A stretch of 5,194 bases of DNA, from positions 1-5,194 of IMG/VR virus record IMGVR_UViG_2778261249_000009. One strand, 5' to 3'. A program made the position numbers and the translations under genes. The notes beneath the pieces are model-generated. The model was not told the DNA's origin and made no database searches. It was given only the letters and a program-made list of their open reading frames with translations. Shown here in pieces: positions 193 to 5,194 of the stretch (its first letter is position 1; the number at the start of each line of letters is the position of its first letter). The DNA comes from a virus (taxonomy: Duplodnaviria; Heunggongvirae; Uroviricota; Caudoviricetes).

Positions 193-206
193 CTTAATTC
201 TCCAGG

Positions 207-233
207 CAAAAAGAAACCGCCATCAGGCGGCTT
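207..233 (-). terminator. Rho-independent terminator (minus strand)
   Basis: Minus strand reads AAG-CCGCC-TGAT-GGCGG-TTT followed by CTTTTTG: GC-rich 5 bp core stem (217-221 / 226-230), extendable to 8 bp, 4-nt loop, then U-tract 207-216. Sits between the small ORF stop and the xis RBS. Confidence 0.5.
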
Positions 234-390
234 GGTGTTCTTTCAGTTCTTCAATTCGAATATTGGTTACGTCTGCATGTGCTATCTGCGCCCACAGCAT
301 CCAGTGGTCATAGCAGTCGCTGATGTTCTCGGCTTCGATAACTCTGTTGAATGGTTCTCCATTCCATTCACCTGTGACTCGGAAGTGCAT
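223..390 (-). CDS. Hypothetical small protein, 55 aa (MHFRVTGEWNGEPFNRVIEAENISDCYDHWMLWAQIAHADVTNIRIEELKEHQAA); below the ORF-track length cutoff
   Basis: Hand-translated: ATG at 390-388 with GGAG 7 nt upstream; TGA stop at 225-223 falls in the loop of the downstream terminator hairpin. Protein-like composition (3 Trp, 4 His). No family recognised. Confidence 0.3.
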   Translation of the reverse strand: MHFRVTGEWNGEPFNRVIEAENISDCYDHWMLWAQIAHADVTNIRIEELKEHQAA

Positions 391-400
391 TTATCATCTC

Positions 401-428
401 CATAAAACAAAACTCGCCGTAGCGAGTT
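401..428 (-). terminator. Rho-independent terminator (minus strand) downstream of the DUF551 gene
   Basis: Perfect inverted repeat AACTCGC (411-417) / GCGAGTT (422-428) with 4-nt loop; on the minus strand the hairpin is followed by TTTTGTTTTAT (complement of 401-410). Confidence 0.45.
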
Positions 429-490
429 CAGATAAAAGAAATCCCCGCGAGTTCGAGGATTGTTATTCACCTTTGACGGCAAGTTGCAGG

Positions 491-1696
491 TTAGCCACGG
501 TTAACCTCCTGCGGCGGTTCTGGTAGTGGCATCCAGTGGGTTACACCGCCAATTGGTTCATCGTCGTCGTACTCCAATGCGGCTATATAGAACCCGTCAC
601 GACGAGAATAAGAAATCCCGGACATTACAATGCCATCCGAAACAACAATAATGTCACCCGTTTCTTCCGGCATTCGCTCACTACAGCTTATCCAACCATC
701 CGGAGTTACCGGAGTTGGTCCATCGAATTCGGGCATGTCAGGACCTTTTCTGATAGCTTTAGCCAGCTCCAGCGGGTCATCGTAAAGCCAGTCGCCAGTT
801 TGTGGGTGATTTGCTTCTGCAAGCTGCGCAGCCCATTCAAGACCATCTTTTTGACCTTGGAGATAATCAAGCGGCAACTCTTCATGATTACTTACAGGTT
901 GGCTACCCTGAAGCATGGCAGCGTGGCAGGCATACTCAACACCCTTAACTGCATCTGCGCAGTAGTTATAGCGATTGCATTCCACTAATTTCCGTTTGAG
1001 TTTTTCAATTGCCTGCGCGACATCAGCCTGTATTACAGGAACTGGCGGAACGGCTGTTTGCTCTCGAACGTCATTAGTCGCTATCGGTTCTGCTGCCAAC
1101 TGACTGGCATATTTGTTAATGGTAACGATAAGCTCTTGCTCAGCCTCATCCAGACAATCACCGATACCTCGCCTGTCACCGTCAAAATCATCGAAATCGG
1201 CACGAATCTTGGCAACCTTCAGGATTGCGGACAACACCTCACTAGGAATTACCGGATAGTTGGTTGACGTTTCCGCGATTTCCCGAAAATTATTGGTTGA
1301 CGAATTCTTATTTTCCCGAAAGTTTCCGGACTGAAGCATGGCGGCGCGGCAGGCGTTCCAGCCTCTTACCTCTGCAATAGCGGCAACCGCATCAACCGCG
1401 TACATGCTAAGAGGATTAGGAATTGGTTTTTCTTCCGGTACTACTGGCGCTGGAGGGGCGGCGTAAATGCCCTCTATCACTAAATGTTTGCGCTCAAAAT
1501 CATCTGGCTCTCGATGATATACGTAACTCCAGTCACCAAGGTTATCATTGCGCCTGCAACGGAAACCTATCGGCTCTGCTTCCAGCGATGCCAGCGCAAT
1601 TTCATAAGCCCGGCGTTCAATATTGTCTCGAACGTCCAGGCTGCTGATACGCTCTTTGATTTCTTTAATCAGTTCTTTGTCGGTGAAAGTGGTCAT
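491..1696 (-). CDS. DUF551 domain-containing phage protein (401 aa)
   Basis: Track ORF 491..1777 begins at a TTG. The preferred start is ATG 1696-1694 with AAGGAG 7 nt upstream, 1 nt after the upstream gene stop (TGATATG). C-terminus ...DGWISCSERMPEETGDIIVVSDG...GFYIAALEYDDDEPIGGVTHWMPLPEPP matches the DUF551 signature (THWMPLP) seen at C-termini of enterobacterial prophage proteins. Internal repeats noted separately. Confidence 0.75.
   Translation of the reverse strand: MTTFTDKELIKEIKERISSLDVRDNIERRAYEIALASLEAEPIGFRCRRNDNLGDWSYVYHREPDDFERKHLVIEGIYAAPPAPVVPEEKPIPNPLSMYAVDAVAAIAEVRGWNACRAAMLQSGNFRENKNSSTNNFREIAETSTNYPVIPSEVLSAILKVAKIRADFDDFDGDRRGIGDCLDEAEQELIVTINKYASQLAAEPIATNDVREQTAVPPVPVIQADVAQAIEKLKRKLVECNRYNYCADAVKGVEYACHAAMLQGSQPVSNHEELPLDYLQGQKDGLEWAAQLAEANHPQTGDWLYDDPLELAKAIRKGPDMPEFDGPTPVTPDGWISCSERMPEETGDIIVVSDGIVMSGISYSRRDGFYIAALEYDDDEPIGGVTHWMPLPEPPQEVNRG
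1260..1325. repeat. Tandem imperfect 33-bp direct repeat (2 units, about 25/33 identical) inside the DUF551 CDS
   Basis: Units 1260-1292 and 1293-1325 both begin TTGGTTGACG and contain TTTCCCGAAA; they encode NFRENKNSSTN / NFREIAETSTN on the minus strand. Confidence 0.6.
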
Positions 1697-1697
1697 A

Positions 1698-2309
1698 TCA
1701 CTCTCCTTTAATGCGAATGCCAGCGGCGCGTGGCACATTAACTTCCACGATGCGCACAGTTGGTTTGTACATCTCAATCGCTGTCAGCCAGTCAGCTCCT
1801 GTCATGCGCTTTTCCGCATCGCCATTAGTCCACTGAACCGGTACACCAATAGCCTTCATAGCGATTTCTATTTCCCCGGCAATGGCGCTTTTTCCGCAAC
1901 CAGTAAAACCAGATACAACGACCAGAACTTCACCTTTGGCTGGTTTTATTTCCCGCGCTTCCAGTTCAGCAATGCGCTTACTCCCATCCCAGATAACGCC
2001 CTCGTAATACTCACGCTGCTCGTTGAGTTTTGATTTTGCCAACTCCAGTTGTTTTGTTAGTTCCGCAATACGGCAAACATCGTTGATACGCGTTTCCTCT
2101 AATGCGTTGATCTCATCCAGTAGTGCCAGCACGGTTTCTGGTCCGGCCAGAAATTTGAAGGCGTTGAGGGCATCAATATCAACACCGCTATCTTTAAGTT
2201 CCTGTTCGCTTATCAGATCATCATCAACTGGCAACATTAACAGGCGTTCCATTGCCGGAATTGCACGCTCTGCCGCCTCACGCAGTGCCTGGTAATTAAT
2301 TTCGCTCAC
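1698..2309 (-). CDS. Ead/Ea22-like coiled-coil prophage protein (203 aa with GTG start; possibly shorter)
   Basis: Track ORF 1698..2501 is over-extended through the Lar gene. GTG at 2309-2307 has GGAGG 6 nt upstream and overlaps only the last 14 nt of lar; alternative ATG at 2252. N-terminus SEINYQALREAAERA followed by a heptad-rich coiled-coil segment resembles Ea22-like proteins as I recall them (unverified). The C-terminal segment VVVSGFTGCGKSAIAGEIEIAMKAIGV is unassigned. Confidence 0.55.
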   Translation of the reverse strand: MSEINYQALREAAERAIPAMERLLMLPVDDDLISEQELKDSGVDIDALNAFKFLAGPETVLALLDEINALEETRINDVCRIAELTKQLELAKSKLNEQREYYEGVIWDGSKRIAELEAREIKPAKGEVLVVVSGFTGCGKSAIAGEIEIAMKAIGVPVQWTNGDAEKRMTGADWLTAIEMYKPTVRIVEVNVPRAAGIRIKGE

Positions 2310-2529
2310 TGGTTGCCTCCTTTGCTCGCTGATTCCACTCAGCTCTAACCTCTGAATAAAAAATCGCGCAGTCATTTCCAGGCGCTGCATATTTGCTACC
2401 AGATTGAGCGCGACACGTACCGCATCGAACGAAATAGAATCTACCGCCAGAGCCATATTCAGGGTGATCTGCTTCACTGGCAACGTGCGCTGCGCCGCCA
2501 CAGAATGGACATGGTAGTAGGTTGCTCAT
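2296..2529 (-). CDS. lar: Lar-family restriction alleviation protein (77 aa, CxxC...CxxC zinc ribbon)
   Basis: ATG 2529-2527 with AAAGGAG 8 nt upstream; ATGA overlap with the upstream gene stop (2526-2529). CPFCGG at residues 7-12 and CGTC at 36-39, the Lar/RalR-family signature; stop TAA 2298-2296. Confidence 0.7.
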   Translation of the reverse strand: MSNLLPCPFCGGAAHVASEADHPEYGSGGRFYFVRCGTCRAQSGSKYAAPGNDCAIFYSEVRAEWNQRAKEATSERN

Positions 2530-3026
2530 GACTGCACTCCTTTGCGAAGCTGGGCGGCTAACTCGTCACATATGTGCGTCAAGGAGCAAAGTTTGATTGA
2601 TGGATGTTCGCGCATCATCTCAACCCCCTGCGCCCGCACTTCAGCAAGGAAAGCATCGGTGGCTGGGGTTTTAACACGGATGCTGTCGCGCAAGATGAAA
2701 AATGCATCAAGCATTCCAACCTCCGGCACTTCATCCTGATGCTTCTCATACGCATCAAGAGCCTTCATCATCTCAGGTCCGAACGGTTGAGGGTGTGCTG
2801 TCTTCAGCCCAGCATTCTCCGCTGCCAGCACCGAGCACTTGGCTTCAAGGTTGTCAATCGTTATTCCAGCAGAACGACACTCACGCAACGCCGTTTCCAG
2901 TTTTGATTCAAGCTCACCAAATTTACGCACCAGATATTCAGCGTTTGTTTCGTTAACCTTTAAATCACTTGGGATGCATTTACCTTTCAGAAATCCATCC
3001 ATCTCAATTAGTGTCATTTGTTTCAT
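2526..3026 (-). CDS. Hypothetical coiled-coil protein (166 aa from ATG 3026; 172 aa if GTG 3044 is used)
   Basis: Track ORF 2526..3044 starts at GTG. ATG 3026-3024 forms an ATGA overlap with the stop of the upstream 54-aa ORF, matching the coupling used elsewhere in the operon. N-terminal half is predicted coiled coil ([18 protein letters not shown]...). No family recognised. Confidence 0.55.
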
Positions 3027-3187
3027 TTCTTCCCACTCCGCCACATCGCATTCAGATATTTGTTTTGATTCACTGATGTAAAAGAATTTCTCTTAAGCAA
3101 TTCCTCTCTCGATGGCATTGGCTTTACGCGTTGGCGAATAATCATTTCTGCCGGAAGAATGCCGGGATTGTATGCAAGTCCTCTCAT
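3023..3187 (-). CDS. Hypothetical small protein, 54 aa ([54 protein letters not shown])
   Basis: C-terminal part of track ORF 3023..3340. ATG 3187-3185 with GAGG 8 nt upstream, 10 nt after the stop of the 98-aa gene; its TGA overlaps the next start (ATGA at 3023-3026). Basic, Lys/Arg-rich. Confidence 0.35.
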
Positions 3188-3197
3188 GGTAAATTCC

Positions 3198-3494
3198 TCA
3201 GTCATTACTGATAGCGCCATAGCGTGAGCGGTAATTACGCAGGCGCGGGTCGATATATTCAGGGAAGTGGGTATATGTGGCTTTGCGGAATGGTCGGATT
3301 GATGTCTGGTAAATTCGCTCGCGTTCTTCTTTCTCTGCAAGCCATACGCAGTGGCGAAATTCCTTTTCCTCTTTTGTTTCCTGCGGTAGCGACATTATCC
3401 GGTCGTAGTTTTTCCTGAATTTATCCAGCACCTCCGATACGGAATTGCCGGAACAGCGGCGCGGGTCATCCGCACCATACAGAGGCGCTGGCAT
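3198..3494 (-). CDS. Hypothetical protein, 98 aa
   Basis: ATG 3494-3492, 23 nt after the SSB-like gene stop, with a weak TAAGG upstream; fills the gap in the operon. No family recognised. Confidence 0.5.
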
Positions 3495-3517
3495 AATGGG
3501 AGCCTTATTTTCAATAA

Positions 3518-4105
3518 TCAGAAAGGAGGGTAATCGTTCTGGCTGTAACCATAATCATCTGCATGATTCTGGCTTACGTTTTTAGAGCGATTGTCTTTAT
3601 CTTTGAGGCTGGCAACCATGTTGGCGATAGTTTCTGGTTGCTTGCCTTCCGCCTTTTCTTTAAGGGTTTGACCTGTTTGTGCAATAAACGGGATGCGTAT
3701 TTCCATCTGGTAGCTGTCTGCGCCAGTCTTTTTGTTTGTGGTTAATACTTTCTGGAGCACTAACCCGATTTTCTTTCCATGAAACTCAGGAGCAACAAAT
3801 TTACTGGCGGAAACCATATGTTGCGTTAATTGTCCAATCCCGGCACACCCCATCATGGCGTGAACGACATTTGCGCCAAATTTGTTTTCCGTTCCGTCAT
3901 TTTTCTGAACACAGACGCTAAGATATTGGATTTTACGTCCGTCGTCAGATTCGCCAGAAAACTCAATAAATTTGGCTCCTTTTTCTGATTGCTTTAGTTC
4001 TGCTTCAGTAATGGTAATGATATGAGCACCAGTTTCGTTAATAAAACCACCTTGCCCTGCGGTCAGTGCTGCTTCTTCGTTATAAGTAAAAATCACGTTG
4101 CTCAT
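3518..4105 (-). CDS. Putative phage ssDNA-binding (SSB-like) protein partnered with the Sak4-like ATPase (195 aa)
   Basis: ATG 4105-4103 in ATGA overlap with the Sak4-like gene stop; TAAGGA RBS. Acidic C-terminal tail ending ...HADDYGYSQNDYPPF resembles the SSB C-terminal tip (acidic residues + terminal PF). Position immediately downstream of a Sak4-like ATPase matches the known Sak4 + cognate SSB arrangement (e.g. phage HK620). The OB fold is not verifiable by eye. Confidence 0.45.
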   Translation of the reverse strand: MSNVIFTYNEEAALTAGQGGFINETGAHIITITEAELKQSEKGAKFIEFSGESDDGRKIQYLSVCVQKNDGTENKFGANVVHAMMGCAGIGQLTQHMVSASKFVAPEFHGKKIGLVLQKVLTTNKKTGADSYQMEIRIPFIAQTGQTLKEKAEGKQPETIANMVASLKDKDNRSKNVSQNHADDYGYSQNDYPPF

Positions 4106-4782
4106 GCGGCGTTTTCCTTAATTTGATGAACATTATTGATGCCGTAGTAATCACAAACAGTGGCATCGACGAAAGAGAGATCGTTATCAATCTCATTAGA
4201 ATCAAACATTCCCATTGGGGATTTAACAGTGTCTGCACCGTTGTTTTTCGTGGTGAAAAAGAACTGGTCATCGCGGGTAAGGGTGCGAAGAACTATAGTA
4301 AACATGCCTTCGACAGTGATTTTCTCGTCCAGCATTTTGCCGATAGTCTTCATTTTCACACGCCCCATAGGGGTTTCTTCGGTGTGCGCAAGAAAATAGA
4401 CTCTCAGGTCATCAGGTGCATCCTGTGCAGCCTTAATCACCTCCCATGCGTGGCGGCCTATCTCAGTGAATTTATCAAACGATTTTTCTTCTGAGCGGCG
4501 CATAAACTCATTGCTCATCACATACTGGAAGTCATCAACAATAACGATTCTTTTCCCGTATTCGTGAGCACGCTTAATTACGGCAACTATTACGTCCCAT
4601 TTGTCAGTGGTAACTACGGTTCCTTTTTTTGCTCTGGCATCCCATGCCAGCCAGTCTTTTGATTTAAATGGAAGCGGCTTGCCTATTGGTTTTATAAGTA
4701 TTGCTTCCTCTGGATTGATATTTCTCATGCTGGTTGATTTTCCGGTGCCAGATTCACCGAGTATTAATGTCGCAGTTCCCAT
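4102..4782 (-). CDS. Sak4-like RecA-fold P-loop ATPase (AAA_24-type, putative single-strand annealing protein), 226 aa
   Basis: ATG 4782-4780 with GAGG 6 nt upstream. Walker A GESGTGKST at residues 9-17 and Walker B-like IVIVDD near residue 80; size and N-terminal P-loop placement fit short phage Sak4/AAA_24 proteins. Confidence 0.7.
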   Translation of the reverse strand: MGTATLILGESGTGKSTSMRNINPEEAILIKPIGKPLPFKSKDWLAWDARAKKGTVVTTDKWDVIVAVIKRAHEYGKRIVIVDDFQYVMSNEFMRRSEEKSFDKFTEIGRHAWEVIKAAQDAPDDLRVYFLAHTEETPMGRVKMKTIGKMLDEKITVEGMFTIVLRTLTRDDQFFFTTKNNGADTVKSPMGMFDSNEIDNDLSFVDATVCDYYGINNVHQIKENAA

Positions 4783-4790
4783 AATTTGCC

Positions 4791-4979
4791 TCAGAATGGT
4801 AATTCGGATGGGGAGGAAAGAAACTCACGCTCATTCATGCGCTCTCTTTGTGCCTGCCATAAGCAAAGTTGTTTCTTTGATTTATCTCCCGCTTTACGCC
4901 AGTAACGAGCCTCAGCAATGTGATATTCTCTTTTTAATCGACTTAACTCTGGAGTTTTCGCCAGTTCTACCGGAATCAT
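4791..4979 (-). CDS. Hypothetical small protein, 62 aa (start at second Met of the track ORF)
   Basis: Track ORF 4791..4991. GGAGG lies 5 nt upstream of ATG 4979-4977 and overlaps the first ATG (4991), so the second ATG is the better start; it also forms an ATGA overlap with the upstream ORF stop (4976-4979). Confidence 0.5.
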   Translation of the reverse strand: MIPVELAKTPELSRLKREYHIAEARYWRKAGDKSKKQLCLWQAQRERMNEREFLSSPSELPF

Positions 4980-5194
4980 TTTGACCTCCATTTTCTGTAG
5001 GCTTCTACGGCCTCACGAAACATCTTTTCATCGCCAATAAAAGTGGCGATAGTGAATTTAGTCTGAATAGCCATAAGTGTTTTATCCATTTTTTGGAACT
5101 CCTGGCTGATTAAGTACGTCGATAAGGCGTTTCCATCCGTCACGTAATTTACGGGTGATTCGTTCAAGTAAAGATTCGGAAGGGCAGCCAGCAA
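4976..5194 (-). CDS. Hypothetical protein, 5'-truncated at the window edge (or a 37-aa protein if it starts at ATG 5089)
   Basis: Frame is open from the window end (track M is a TTG at 5194-5192) to TGA 4978-4976. Internal ATG 5089-5087 has AGGAG 9 nt upstream, so an independent 37-aa product is possible. Confidence 0.4.
   Translation of the reverse strand: MLAALPNLYLNESPVNYVTDGNALSTYLISQEFQKMDKTLMAIQTKFTIATFIGDEKMFREAVEAYRKWRSK

What the first reader, a model, noticed from the sequence alone, without database searches (positions are those of the whole stretch)
2296..3494. Lar-centred cluster of small uncharacterised proteins: candidate anti-defence island
A Lar-family zinc-ribbon protein (CPFCGG...CGTC) is translationally coupled to three upstream ORFs of unknown function (98 aa, 54 aa, 166 aa coiled-coil) and followed by an Ea22-like protein. 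Lar/Ral proteins are known to alleviate Type I restriction, and early-left operons of lambdoid phages next to the recombination genes are a recognised location for anti-defence genes. The unannotatable neighbours are therefore plausible inhibitors of restriction or other defence systems; none matches a family I can name.
Basis: partly seen in the sequence, partly recalled or inferred. Interest (0 to 1): 0.6.

Follow-up and report, generated by a model that had tools for sequence, protein, structure and literature searches.

The report
Known prophage abc2–Lar accessory gene block
This is an ordinary, already catalogued stretch of the early-left operon of a P22/HK620-like E. coli prophage: a well-studied RecBCD hijacker (Abc2) followed by three small accessory genes, including a Lar-family zinc ribbon, whose functions are still untested.

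Summary
They are tightly packed, each has a Shine-Dalgarno motif, and each is under purifying selection.

- **98-aa ORF:** not unknown. It is Abc2 (Pfam E=9e-62; 92% identical to P22 Abc2, PDB 8B1T), a characterised RecC-binding RecBCD modulator.
- **54-aa ORF:** DUF2737 (P22 orf56, HK620 hkaI).
- **166-aa ORF:** a member of the very mosaic EaE/HkaH helical family.
- **77-aa ORF:** a genuine but divergent Lar-family 4-Cys zinc ribbon. It is only 26% identical to Rac Lar/RalR, whose own anti-restriction role is disputed.

The order of genes matches P22, HK620 and HK97. Copies of the block that are at least 99% identical sit in E. coli prophages next to three different recombinase modules. The abc2–DUF2737 pair occurs in about 20% of complete E. 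coli genomes, and this Lar allele in about 1%.

The "anti-defence island" reading is partly supported, and only through Abc2, which is textbook. No evidence assigns a counter-defence role to the other three genes. An equally plausible comparison is the lambda exo–xis region, whose genes modulate development. Nothing here is new beyond three still-uncharacterised accessory genes.

The parts
3198..3494 (-). abc2: anti-RecBCD protein 2 (98 aa), orthologue of P22 Abc2, HK620 HkaJ and HK97 gp39
   Evidence: Pfam PF11043 E=9.4e-62. PHROG 656 'abc2 anti-RecBCD' E=1.9e-56. 92% identical to P22 Abc2 and 97% to HkaJ. PDB 8B1T/8B1U chain A E=1.9e-56, with only 3 substitutions in residues 1-66, the modelled part that lies on RecC. 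Pro68, the PpiB site, is conserved.
3023..3187 (-). DUF2737 small basic protein (54 aa, pI 11), equivalent to P22 orf56, HK620 HkaI and HK97 gp38; function unknown
   Evidence: Pfam PF10930 E=5e-30. PHROG 1117, unknown function. 98% identical to HkaI and 74% to P22 orf56. Third-position bias against P22 orf56 is 15/6/28. The core PxP(S/T)REELxxRNSF...NKYLN is also present in virulent Guernseyvirinae phages that show no abc2 nearby.
2526..3026 (-). EaE/HkaH-family mosaic helical protein (166 aa, ATG 3026); function unknown
   Evidence: PHROG 614 E=8e-55 and PHROG 492 E=8e-28, both of unknown function. 62% identical to HK620 HkaH over residues 1-141; C-terminal part 29% identical to P22 EaE. More than 7900 90%-identity clusters. 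Invariant N-terminus 1-38, swapped middle modules, conserved [11 protein letters not shown] and AAQLRKG motifs. No Pfam, NCBIfam or PDB match. AlphaFold2 model all-helical, pLDDT 64.
2296..2529 (-). Lar-family 4-Cys zinc-ribbon protein (77 aa); activity untested
   Evidence: PF14354, 38.5 bits against a gathering score of 28.6. TIGR03655, 29.4 bits, below the 39.6 cut-off. Profile match to Rac RalR/Lar: probability 96.3%, E=1.8e-9. C7, C10, C36 and C39 invariant in 13 homologues. AlphaFold2 pLDDT 81.5. Best viral fold matches are Lar-annotated proteins, TM 0.81. The reading frame is confirmed by codon-position bias.
1698..2309 (-). Ead/Ea22-like protein (203 aa, GTG 2309) with a C-terminal Walker-A-like module; downstream neighbour in the same operon
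   Evidence: PF13935 E=7.9e-21 and PHROG 250. AAGGAGG lies 6 nt before the GTG. The alternative 267-aa call from GTG 2501 is rejected.
3518..4105 (-). HK620 HkaK-type phage SSB (195 aa); upstream context, part of the recombination module
   Evidence: 99.5% identical to HkaK. PHROG 743. Shown to be the cognate SSB of Sak4 in PMC5928155.
4102..4782 (-). Sak4 single-strand annealing protein (226 aa); upstream context, part of the recombination module
   Evidence: 99.6% identical to HK620 HkaL. PHROG 2872 E=3.9e-108. Characterised in PMC5928155.
3495..3527 (.). Mosaic junction between the interchangeable recombinase modules and the abc2-led block
   Evidence: Alignments to contigs that carry Rad52+SSB or Erf modules end at window 3497-3527. 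Alignment to the Sak4-type contig continues to 5194.
491..1696 (-). EaA-like protein with C-terminal DUF551 (401 aa); further member of the conserved block
   Evidence: PF04448 E=7.8e-15. C-terminus 42% identical to P22 EaA.
214..461 (-). Terminator-like hairpins (461-440, 429-410, 233-214) flanking the 55-aa ORF at 223-390. These are the first terminator-like sites downstream of the cluster.
   Evidence: No minus-strand terminator-like site lies within 2296-3494. The 55-aa ORF matches PHROG 676.

Best explanation
Window 2296-3494 is the start of the non-essential 'ea' segment of the early-left (PL) operon of a P22/HK620-type lambdoid E. coli prophage. This segment is the positional equivalent of lambda's exo–xis region.

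**Layout.** Four genes are read in series on the minus strand from one transcript: abc2, DUF2737, an EaE/HkaH-family gene and lar. They follow the Sak4–SSB recombination module and precede the Ead/Ea22-like gene, the EaA-like gene, xis and int.

[quoted passage not shown] It leaves RecBCD helicase activity largely intact but redirects the enzyme, so that it serves the phage recombinase instead of destroying phage DNA ends.

**The other three genes (inferred only).** They are mobile accessory modules.
- DUF2737 is a small basic peptide with a conserved linear motif. It most likely binds a host protein.
- The 166-aa protein is a modular helical protein of the hypervariable Ead/EaE type.
- Lar is a zinc ribbon of the Rac Lar family. 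It most likely acts by binding a host protein or DNA. Alleviation of type I restriction is the leading guess, but it is untested.

The block is already present and annotated in many genomes.
For: **Gene identities.**

**Shared gene order.** The order matches P22 (erf-abc1-abc2-orf56-eaE-...-eaD-...-eaA-...-xis-int), HK620 (hkaL-hkaK-hkaJ-hkaI-hkaH-hkaG), HK97 (abc2 next to erf) and E. coli E189 (abc2-DUF2737-hypothetical-Lar-...-Ead).

**One transcription unit.** No minus-strand terminator-like site lies inside the cluster. The genes overlap or abut, and each has a Shine-Dalgarno motif.

**Abc2 mechanism.** It comes from the cryo-EM and biochemical study PMC9836394. The Sak4/SSB/Abc2 module of HK620 was studied in PMC5928155.

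**Conservation and mobility of the block.**
- Window 203-3497 is at least 99% identical in E. coli contigs that carry Sak4, Rad52 or Erf modules.
- The abc2+DUF2737 pair is in 1078 of 5426 complete E. coli genomes.
- The Lar allele is in 47 of 5426, and every hit listed is annotated 'Lar family restriction alleviation protein'.
Against: - Nothing here tests the function of DUF2737, the 166-aa protein or Lar, so their proposed modes of action are guesses.
- The AlphaFold2 model of the 166-aa protein has low confidence.
- Abc2 has been characterised with Erf or lambda Beta. With Sak4 it had no effect in an ssDNA recombineering assay, so its role with this recombinase is inferred.
- No complete E. 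coli genome in the collection covers at least 80% of the whole 5.2-kb window. The exact combination of modules is therefore uncommon, although draft contigs match it at 99% over long stretches.
Confidence: 0.85

Rival explanations
1. One reading: the neighbours of Lar (DUF2737 and the 166-aa protein) and Lar itself are dedicated inhibitors of restriction or other defence systems, so the cluster is an anti-defence island.
For: - Abc2, in the same cluster, is a genuine RecBCD antagonist.
- The abc1/abc2 neighbourhood has been used as an accessory region that holds counter-defence genes.
- The slot between DUF2737 and Ead varies between phages.
- The 166-aa family is hypervariable, with more than 7900 clusters and swapped modules, as expected for genes under host–phage conflict.
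- Lar has the Lar-family fold.
Against: - No sequence or fold match links DUF2737 or the 166-aa protein to any known anti-defence protein. PHROGs classes both as 'unknown function'.
- Lar is only distantly related to Rac Lar, and Rac Lar's anti-restriction role is contested.
- Related prophages already carry a bona fide Ral as well as Lar.
- Lar is near-neutral (pI 6.7), so it is not an acidic DNA mimic.
- The ea region of P22-like prophages also carries defence cargo, for example DUF262/GmrSD-type genes. Location alone therefore does not indicate counter-defence.
Confidence: 0.2
2. The three uncharacterised genes are exo–xis-type modulators of phage development and host physiology. They would bias the lysis–lysogeny decision or prophage induction, like lambda/Phi24B Ea22, Orf60a, Orf61, Orf63 and Orf73, and would not be anti-defence factors.
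For: - They occupy the same position, between the recombination genes and xis, and sit next to an Ead/Ea22-like gene.
- Abstracts of the exo–xis literature report effects on lysogenisation and induction, and a pro-lysogenic Ea22 that keeps its function despite high sequence diversity.
- Some members of the 166-aa family score as Ead/Ea22-like, and PHROG 368 matches both the 166-aa protein and the Ead neighbour.
Against: - None of the three proteins is homologous to a characterised lambda exo–xis protein. There is no PDB match, although Ea22 and Orf63 structures have been published.
- The evidence is positional only.
Confidence: 0.25
3. DUF2737 is a functional partner of Abc2, acting as a cofactor in RecBCD modulation or recombination.
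For: - It lies immediately downstream of abc2 in P22, HK620, E. coli E189, phage APC_JM3.2 and the window, about 10 nt after the abc2 stop.
- The pair is found in 1078 of 5426 complete E. coli genomes.
- The mosaic junction keeps abc2 with DUF2737, not with the recombinase.
Against: - The DUF2737 core also occurs in virulent Jerseyvirus, Kagunavirus and related phages, in a cluster of small genes between lysis and terminase, with no abc2 in the stretches examined.
- The RecBCD–Abc2–PpiB complex forms without it.
Confidence: 0.12
4. The Lar homologue is a RalR-like DNase toxin of a type I toxin–antitoxin pair, not a restriction alleviator.
For: - It is homologous to RalR (hhalign probability 96.3%).
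- RalR is reported to be a non-specific DNase controlled by the antisense sRNA RalA.
Against: - RalR Lys52, whose K52Q mutant is inactive, aligns with Gln67 of the window protein (WNKR against WNQR), and Gln is the subfamily consensus.
- Cys14 and Arg49 of RalR also differ in the window protein.
- No antisense sRNA family was found, and no plus-strand promoter-like site lies near Lar.
- The gene sits inside a translationally packed operon, unlike a toxin–antitoxin cassette.
Confidence: 0.06
5. There is no separate Lar gene, and the real gene is the 267-aa ORF (1698-2501) called by some annotation pipelines.
For: Gene callers produced a 267-aa Ead_Ea22 product in place of Lar plus a 203-aa protein in two of six near-identical contigs (L009, L014).
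Against: - In the Lar frame, differences from homologues concentrate at third codon positions, and the other frames contain stops in homologues.
- Pfam and fold matches support Lar.
- Four cysteines are invariant across homologues.
- A strong Shine-Dalgarno motif precedes GTG 2309, and none precedes GTG 2501.
- The Pfam Ead match begins at the 2309 start.
Confidence: 0.02

Closest known systems
Phage P22 abc2–orf56–eaE segment of the PL operon (NC_002371) and its HK620 counterpart hkaJ–hkaI–hkaH (NC_002730)
   Same: The order, strand and packing of the genes are the same. Abc2 is 92% identical to the P22 protein and 97% to the HK620 one. DUF2737 is 74% and 98% identical respectively. The 166-aa protein is 62% identical to HkaH and 29% to EaE over its C-terminus. 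The upstream Sak4 and SSB genes are at least 99% identical to HK620.
   Different: A Lar-family gene is inserted between the EaE/HkaH-type gene and the Ead-type gene. P22 has orf45 and eaF in that slot, and HK620 has nothing there. The downstream Ead and EaA alleles also differ.
P22 Abc2 bound to RecBCD (PDB 8B1T, 8B1U; Wilkinson et al. 2022, PMC9836394)
   Same: The sequence is near-identical over the part modelled on RecC (3 substitutions in residues 1-66), and Pro68, which engages PpiB, is conserved.
   Different: The partner recombinase here is Sak4 plus its SSB, not Erf, and there is no Abc1. The C-terminal 30 residues carry most of the substitutions.
Rac prophage Lar/RalR of E. coli K-12 (b1348)
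   Same: Both have the CPFCG...CxxC zinc ribbon followed by an E-x-W-N-x-R helix (hhalign probability 96.3%). Both lie in a prophage early-left operon downstream of the recombination genes and upstream of xis and int.
   Different: Identity is only 26% over 42 residues. The window protein has two insertions (SEADHPEYGSGG and SK...NDCAIFY). Lys52 of RalR is replaced by Gln. There is no RalA-type antisense RNA. The window protein scores below the TIGR03655 cut-off.
Lambda/Stx-phage exo–xis region (orf60a, orf63, orf61, orf73, ea22, ea8.5)
   Same: It is the same place in the genome, between the recombination genes and xis. Both are non-essential early genes, both include an Ead/Ea22-type protein, and both are highly mosaic.
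   Different: The three uncharacterised proteins have no detectable homology to the characterised exo–xis proteins.
Lambda/P22 Ral (PF11058)
   Same: It is a small early-left-operon protein associated with alleviation of type I restriction.
   Different: It is an unrelated family and has no match in the window. Related prophages encode Ral separately, far upstream of Lar.

Membership tests
Abc2 / Anti-RecBCD protein 2 (PF11043) | Sequence match above the Pfam gathering score over the full length | tested here: met
   205.7 bits against a cut-off of 25, residues 1-98 on profile positions 1-97 of 97. PHROG 656 E=1.9e-56.
Abc2 / Anti-RecBCD protein 2 (PF11043) | Conservation of the N-terminal helical region that lies on RecC in the solved complex, and of Pro68, the PpiB site | tested here: met
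   Alignment to 8B1T chain A shows 3 substitutions in residues 1-66 and Pro68 present.
Abc2 / Anti-RecBCD protein 2 (PF11043) | Position directly after the phage recombinase module in the PL operon | tested here: met
   It follows Sak4 and SSB here, Erf and abc1 in P22, and Rad52 or Erf modules in near-identical contigs.
Abc2 / Anti-RecBCD protein 2 (PF11043) | Binds RecC and alters RecBCD activity | not testable with these tools
   Needs co-purification or nuclease and recombination assays. Inferred from 92% identity to P22 Abc2.
Lar family (PF14354 / TIGR03655) | Pfam PF14354 gathering score | tested here: met
   38.5 bits against 28.6, residues 3-69 on profile positions 2-58 of 58.
Lar family (PF14354 / TIGR03655) | NCBIfam TIGR03655 (anti_R_Lar) curated cut-off | tested here: not met
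   29.4 bits against 39.6. This makes it a divergent subfamily.
Lar family (PF14354 / TIGR03655) | Four-cysteine zinc ribbon (CPxCG ... CxxC) and homology to Rac Lar/RalR | tested here: met
   C7, C10, C36 and C39 are invariant. hhalign to RalR gives probability 96.3%, E=1.8e-9. The fold matches Lar-annotated viral proteins, TM 0.81.
Lar family (PF14354 / TIGR03655) | Alleviates EcoKI-type restriction and enhances modification (the phenotype that named the family) | not testable with these tools
   Needs plating of unmodified phage on hosts with restriction–modification systems. The founding claim (King & Murray 1995, reference 30 of PMC4041452) is disputed in that same paper.
RalR-type DNase toxin with RalA antitoxin (type I toxin–antitoxin) | Lys52 required for DNase activity (K52Q is inactive) | tested here: not met
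   The aligned residue is Gln67, WNQR against WNKR.
RalR-type DNase toxin with RalA antitoxin (type I toxin–antitoxin) | Adjacent antisense sRNA antitoxin | tested here: inconclusive
   No Rfam match and no plus-strand promoter-like site near Lar. A novel sRNA cannot be excluded.
Lambda Ral (PF11058) | Sequence match to the Ral family | tested here: not met
   No protein in the window matches PF11058. Ral is a separate gene in related prophages.
DUF2737 (PF10930) | Pfam gathering score over the full length | tested here: met
   103.6 bits against 25, residues 1-52 on profile positions 1-52 of 53. PHROG 1117 E=2.6e-37.
EaE/HkaH family (PHROG 614 / 492; no Pfam model) | Profile match and homology to HK620 HkaH and P22 EaE | tested here: met
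   PHROG 614 E=8e-55 and PHROG 492 E=8e-28. 62% identical to HkaH and 29% to EaE.
Known anti-defence proteins (Ocr, ArdA, Gam, anti-CRISPRs and others) for DUF2737, the 166-aa protein and Lar | Sequence or fold similarity to a characterised inhibitor | tested here: not met
   PDB sequence searches were empty. Foldseek against the PDB gave nothing significant for Lar or the 166-aa model. PHROG category is 'unknown' for DUF2737 and the 166-aa protein. No dedicated anti-defence HMM library was available.

The most novel reading that the evidence does not exclude
At least one of the three uncharacterised genes is a new counter-defence or host-takeover factor.

- The best candidate is DUF2737. It is a 54-aa basic peptide with a conserved PxP(S/T)REELxxRNSF...NKYLN motif. 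It lies directly after abc2 in temperate phages and is also kept by virulent Guernseyvirinae phages.
- The second candidate is this Lar subfamily, which has a natural K52Q-type change.
- The hypervariable 166-aa EaE/HkaH family could also reflect an arms race with a host sensor.
Probability: 0.25. Interest if true: 0.45.

Novelty: already known. Interest (0 to 1): 0.15.

Why it matters
The practical value is a corrected annotation. The cluster is led by Abc2, a RecBCD hijacker whose structure is solved, and it is not a set of unknowns around Lar.

RecBCD antagonists matter because several defence systems sense them. Recent work cited here connects OLD and Gabija with such proteins. Prophages that carry abc2, about one in five complete E. 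coli genomes, are therefore relevant to those studies.

DUF2737, the EaE/HkaH family and this Lar subfamily are very common in enterobacterial prophages and have no experimental function. They are reasonable but unremarkable entries for accessory-gene screens. The name 'Lar family restriction alleviation protein' should be read with caution, because the founding member's activity is disputed.

Tried and rejected
**Searches that found nothing useful**
- PADLOC defence models gave no hit for the four proteins.
- NCBIfam gave only the sub-threshold Lar hit.
- PDB sequence searches for Lar, the 166-aa protein and DUF2737 were empty.
- Foldseek of the Lar model against the PDB gave only insignificant hits, to dsRBD, ribosomal and cereblon chains.
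- Foldseek of the 166-aa model against the PDB gave nothing, and the model is too uncertain (pLDDT 64, pTM 0.27) to interpret.
- Pfam scans of 33 members of the 166-aa family gave only spurious coiled-coil hits and two Ead_Ea22 hits. The 'HNH endonuclease' names attached to some members have no domain support.
- Rfam found no RNA family in the cluster.

**Literature**
- 'DUF2737' occurs in one unrelated phage-therapy paper.
- The only relevant mention of hkaH and hkaJ is a filamentation screen, where they appear in a gene list for a region that also contains kil.
- No experimental paper on Lar-family proteins beyond Rac Lar was found.
- The supplementary text held for Silas et al. 2025 contains neither of the two searched sequence fragments, MRGLAYNPG (DUF2737) and CPFCGG (Lar).

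**Ideas rejected**
- The 267-aa ORF in place of Lar.
- The GTG 3044 start for the 166-aa gene. The ATG at 3026 overlaps the upstream stop, and homologues begin with MKQM.
- A functional terminator inside DUF2737. The 'tL3' annotated in the HK620 record corresponds to a weak hairpin, z = -0.42.
- Lar as an Ea8.5- or TraR-type zinc protein. There is no Pfam or PDB support.

**Not used:** the third large protein search and the representative-library search. Their results would not have changed the verdict.


Full report
**1. What is in the sequence**

All credible genes in the 5194-base window are on the minus strand. Read in the direction of transcription, they are:

| Window coordinates | Product | Notes |
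|---|---|---|
| 4791-4991 | 66-aa ORF | Overlaps the 62-aa HK620 HkaM |
| 4102-4782 | Sak4, 226 aa | 99.6% identical to HK620 HkaL |
| 3518-4105 | Phage SSB, 195 aa | 99.5% identical to HK620 HkaK |
| 3198-3494 | 98-aa ORF | In the finding |
| 3023-3187 | 54-aa ORF | In the finding |
| 2526-3026 | 166-aa ORF | In the finding |
| 2296-2529 | 77-aa zinc ribbon | In the finding |
| 1698-2309 | Ead/Ea22-like, 203 aa | Starts at GTG 2309 |
| 491-1696 | EaA-like with DUF551, 401 aa | |
| 223-390 | 55-aa ORF | |
| 1-192 | AlpA/Xis-like, 63 aa | |

A partial match to the lambda cIII thermoregulator RNA at the window edge (5177-5194) fits kil and cIII lying just upstream, as in HK620.

**2. The ORFs are real and tightly packed**

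- The 54-aa stop and the 166-aa start share ATGA (3023-3026).
- The 166-aa stop and the Lar start share ATGA (2526-2529).
- The 54-aa ATG lies 10 nt after the abc2 stop.
- Lar overlaps the GTG of the Ead gene by 14 nt.
- Each start has a Shine-Dalgarno-like motif.
- No minus-strand terminator-like site lies in 2296-3494. The first ones are at 461-410 and 233-214.

Differences from homologues pile up at third codon positions.

| Gene and comparison | Differences at codon positions 1/2/3 |
|---|---|
| Lar vs Serratia homologue | 21/20/53 |
| Lar vs Kluyvera homologue | 18/13/41 |
| Abc2 vs P22 | 7/2/18 |
| DUF2737 vs P22 orf56 | 15/6/28 |
| 166-aa ORF vs its E189 homologue | 39/28/57 |

Some pipelines call a 267-aa ORF from GTG 2501 in place of Lar plus the 203-aa protein. 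That call is wrong. It has no Shine-Dalgarno motif, the alternative frames carry stops in homologues, and the Pfam Ead match begins at the 2309 start.

**3. Identities**

*The 98-aa ORF is Abc2.*
- It matches Pfam PF11043 with E=9.4e-62 and PHROG 'abc2 anti-RecBCD'.
- It is 92% identical to P22 Abc2 and 97% to HK620 HkaJ.
- It aligns end to end with PDB 8B1T/8B1U chain A. There are three substitutions in residues 1-66, the part modelled on RecC, and Pro68 is conserved.
- Wilkinson et al. [quoted passage not shown] They also show that it has only moderate effects on helicase and nuclease activity, and that it engages host PpiB, almost certainly through Pro68.

*The 54-aa ORF is DUF2737.*
- It matches PF10930 with E=5e-30.
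- It is 98% identical to HkaI and 74% to P22 orf56.

*The 166-aa ORF belongs to the EaE/HkaH family.*
- It has no Pfam, NCBIfam or PDB match.
- It matches PHROGs 614 and 492. It is 62% identical to HK620 HkaH over residues 1-141, and its C-terminal part is 29% identical to P22 EaE.

*The 77-aa ORF is a Lar-family zinc ribbon.*
- It passes Pfam PF14354 (38.5 bits against 28.6) but not NCBIfam TIGR03655 (29.4 against 39.6).

**4. The 166-aa family**

More than 7900 90%-identity clusters match it, nearly all from E. coli and Salmonella. An alignment of 33 members shows:
- an invariant N-terminus (residues 1-38);
- helical segments that are inserted, deleted or swapped;
- an invariant [11 protein letters not shown] motif;
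- a variable stretch;
- a conserved AAQLRKG tail.

Two members score as Ead/Ea22-like, and PHROG 368 matches both this protein and the Ead neighbour, so modules are shared between the two families. Some database names say 'HNH endonuclease', but no domain supports that. The AlphaFold2 model is all-helical but unreliable (pLDDT 64, pTM 0.27), and Foldseek returned nothing.

**5. Lar**

- Thirteen homologues keep C7, C10, C36 and C39 invariant.
- The AlphaFold2 model (pLDDT 81.5) is a three-stranded zinc ribbon followed by a C-terminal helix.
- Its best matches among predicted viral structures are proteins annotated as Lar, with TM up to 0.81. Nothing significant appears among solved structures.
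- Against the founding member, Rac prophage Lar/RalR, BLASTP gives 26% identity over 42 residues. Profile comparison gives 96.3% probability, with two insertions in the window protein.

So this is a true but divergent family member, and what the family does is unsettled. King and Murray (1995) named Lar for restriction alleviation. Guo et al. [quoted passage not shown] In the window protein the aligned residue is naturally Gln (WNQR against WNKR), and Gln is the subfamily consensus. That argues against a RalR-type DNase activity here.

Lar is also unrelated to lambda Ral. No PF11058 match exists in the window, and related prophages carry Ral as a separate gene far upstream of Lar. That sits awkwardly with the two doing the same job.

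**6. Context and distribution**

The order of genes matches P22 (erf-abc1-abc2-orf56-eaE-orf45-eaF-eaD-eaI-eaA-eaG-eaC-xis-int), HK620 (hkaL-K-J-I-H-G...) and HK97.

Window 203-3497 is at least 99% identical to E. coli draft contigs in which the block sits next to three different recombinase modules: Sak4 plus SSB, Rad52 plus SSB plus a 155-aa protein, or Erf plus a 127-aa protein. It also sits next to two different int/xis ends. The junction lies just upstream of the abc2 start.

| Element | Complete E. coli genomes with ≥80% coverage (of 5426) |
|---|---|
| abc2–DUF2737 pair | 1078 |
| This Lar allele | 47 |
| Whole 5.2-kb window | 0 |

Every Lar hit listed is annotated 'Lar family restriction alleviation protein'.

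Lar homologues elsewhere sit in other contexts. In a Serratia prophage, Lar lies between a 133-aa ORF and an HNH gene in the PL operon. In a Kluyvera prophage, it lies in the nin region after DnaB. Lar is therefore a mobile insert in a variable slot, not the centre of a conserved cluster.

The DUF2737 core motif also occurs in virulent Jerseyvirus, Kagunavirus and related phages, in a run of tiny genes between the lysis and terminase genes, with no abc2 nearby. It is therefore not strictly tied to Abc2.

**7. How it most likely works**

Shown for orthologues and inferred here: after PL transcription with N antitermination, the four genes are translated in series. Abc2 binds RecC and redirects RecBCD so that phage DNA ends are spared and handed to the phage recombinase, here Sak4 with its SSB.

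Inferred only:
- DUF2737, a basic peptide with a conserved linear motif, probably binds a host protein.
- The 166-aa protein is a modular helical protein of the hypervariable Ead/EaE type.
- Lar probably acts by binding a host protein or DNA. Type I restriction alleviation is the leading hypothesis, but it is untested.

An equally reasonable frame for the three unknowns is the lambda exo–xis region. Its small early genes bias lysogeny, induction and host physiology.

**8. Comparison with what is known, and verdict**

The gene order, the Abc2 identity and the general idea that this neighbourhood is an accessory region with counter-defence genes are all published or annotated.

It errs in calling the neighbours unannotatable, in centring the cluster on Lar and in equating Lar with Ral. 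The anti-defence reading is supported only by Abc2, which is textbook.

No evidence for or against a counter-defence role could be obtained for DUF2737, the 166-aa protein or Lar. The finding is ordinary and already known. Its residual interest lies in three very common but experimentally untouched accessory genes.

Noticed in passing
window 1698-2309 (-), C-terminal ~95 aa (about 1701-1997): The Ead/Ea22-like protein ends in a small module with a Walker-A-like GFTGCGKS motif. Matches are weak: Pfam APS_kinase E=0.0036, PHROG 11761, and only marginal P-loop hits in the PDB. An Ea22-type N-terminus fused to a mini P-loop-like domain has no assigned function.
   Followed up: partly
window 1698-2501 (-) versus 2296-2529 (-); loci L009 and L014, 8526-9329: Gene callers in two of six near-identical E. 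coli contigs merge the Lar region and the Ead gene into a 267-aa ORF and miss Lar. Codon-position bias, stops in homologues and the Shine-Dalgarno positions show that Lar plus a 203-aa Ead protein (GTG 2309) is correct.
   Followed up: yes
window 203-3497; junctions near 3497-3527 and 203-232: The abc2-to-orf55 block is at least 99% identical in contigs that carry three different recombinase modules (Sak4+SSB, Rad52+SSB+155 aa, Erf+127 aa) and two different int/xis ends. abc2 therefore travels with the downstream ea genes and not with the recombinase.
   Followed up: partly
window 5177-5194 (-): Partial, sub-threshold match to the Rfam Lambda_thermo family (cIII thermoregulator; 21.6 bits, cut off by the window end). 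This fits a cIII gene lying just beyond the window.
   Followed up: no
window 3023-3187 (-); loci L006 3426-3596, L007 3444-3614, L008 3441-3602: The DUF2737 core motif (PxP(S/T)REELxxRNSF...NKYLN) is shared between temperate P22-, lambda- and HK97-like phages and virulent Guernseyvirinae (Jerseyvirus, Kagunavirus, phiEap-2). In the virulent phages it lies among tiny ORFs between the lysis and terminase genes.
   Followed up: partly
window ~3082-3094 (-), inside the DUF2737 gene: The HK620 record annotates a terminator 'tL3' at the homologous position. In the window this is only a weak AT-rich hairpin followed by four U (-8.4 kcal/mol, z = -0.42), and the terminator scan did not flag it.
   Followed up: yes
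window 2296-2529 (-), residue Gln67: Lys52 of Rac RalR, whose K52Q mutant lacks DNase activity and toxicity, aligns with a naturally occurring Gln in this Lar subfamily (WNQR consensus).
   Followed up: partly
window 491-1696 (-): The 401-aa EaA-like protein contains an internal repeat-like motif (…CRAAMLQSG… and …CHAAMLQGS…) ahead of its C-terminal DUF551 domain, and it matches several PHROGs in a piecewise way. This suggests another mosaic protein.
   Followed up: no
loci L009, L010 and L001 (E. coli E189): Prophages that carry this Lar allele can also carry a bona fide Ral (PF11058) gene near the N gene in the same operon. If both acted on type IA restriction, they would be redundant.
   Followed up: no
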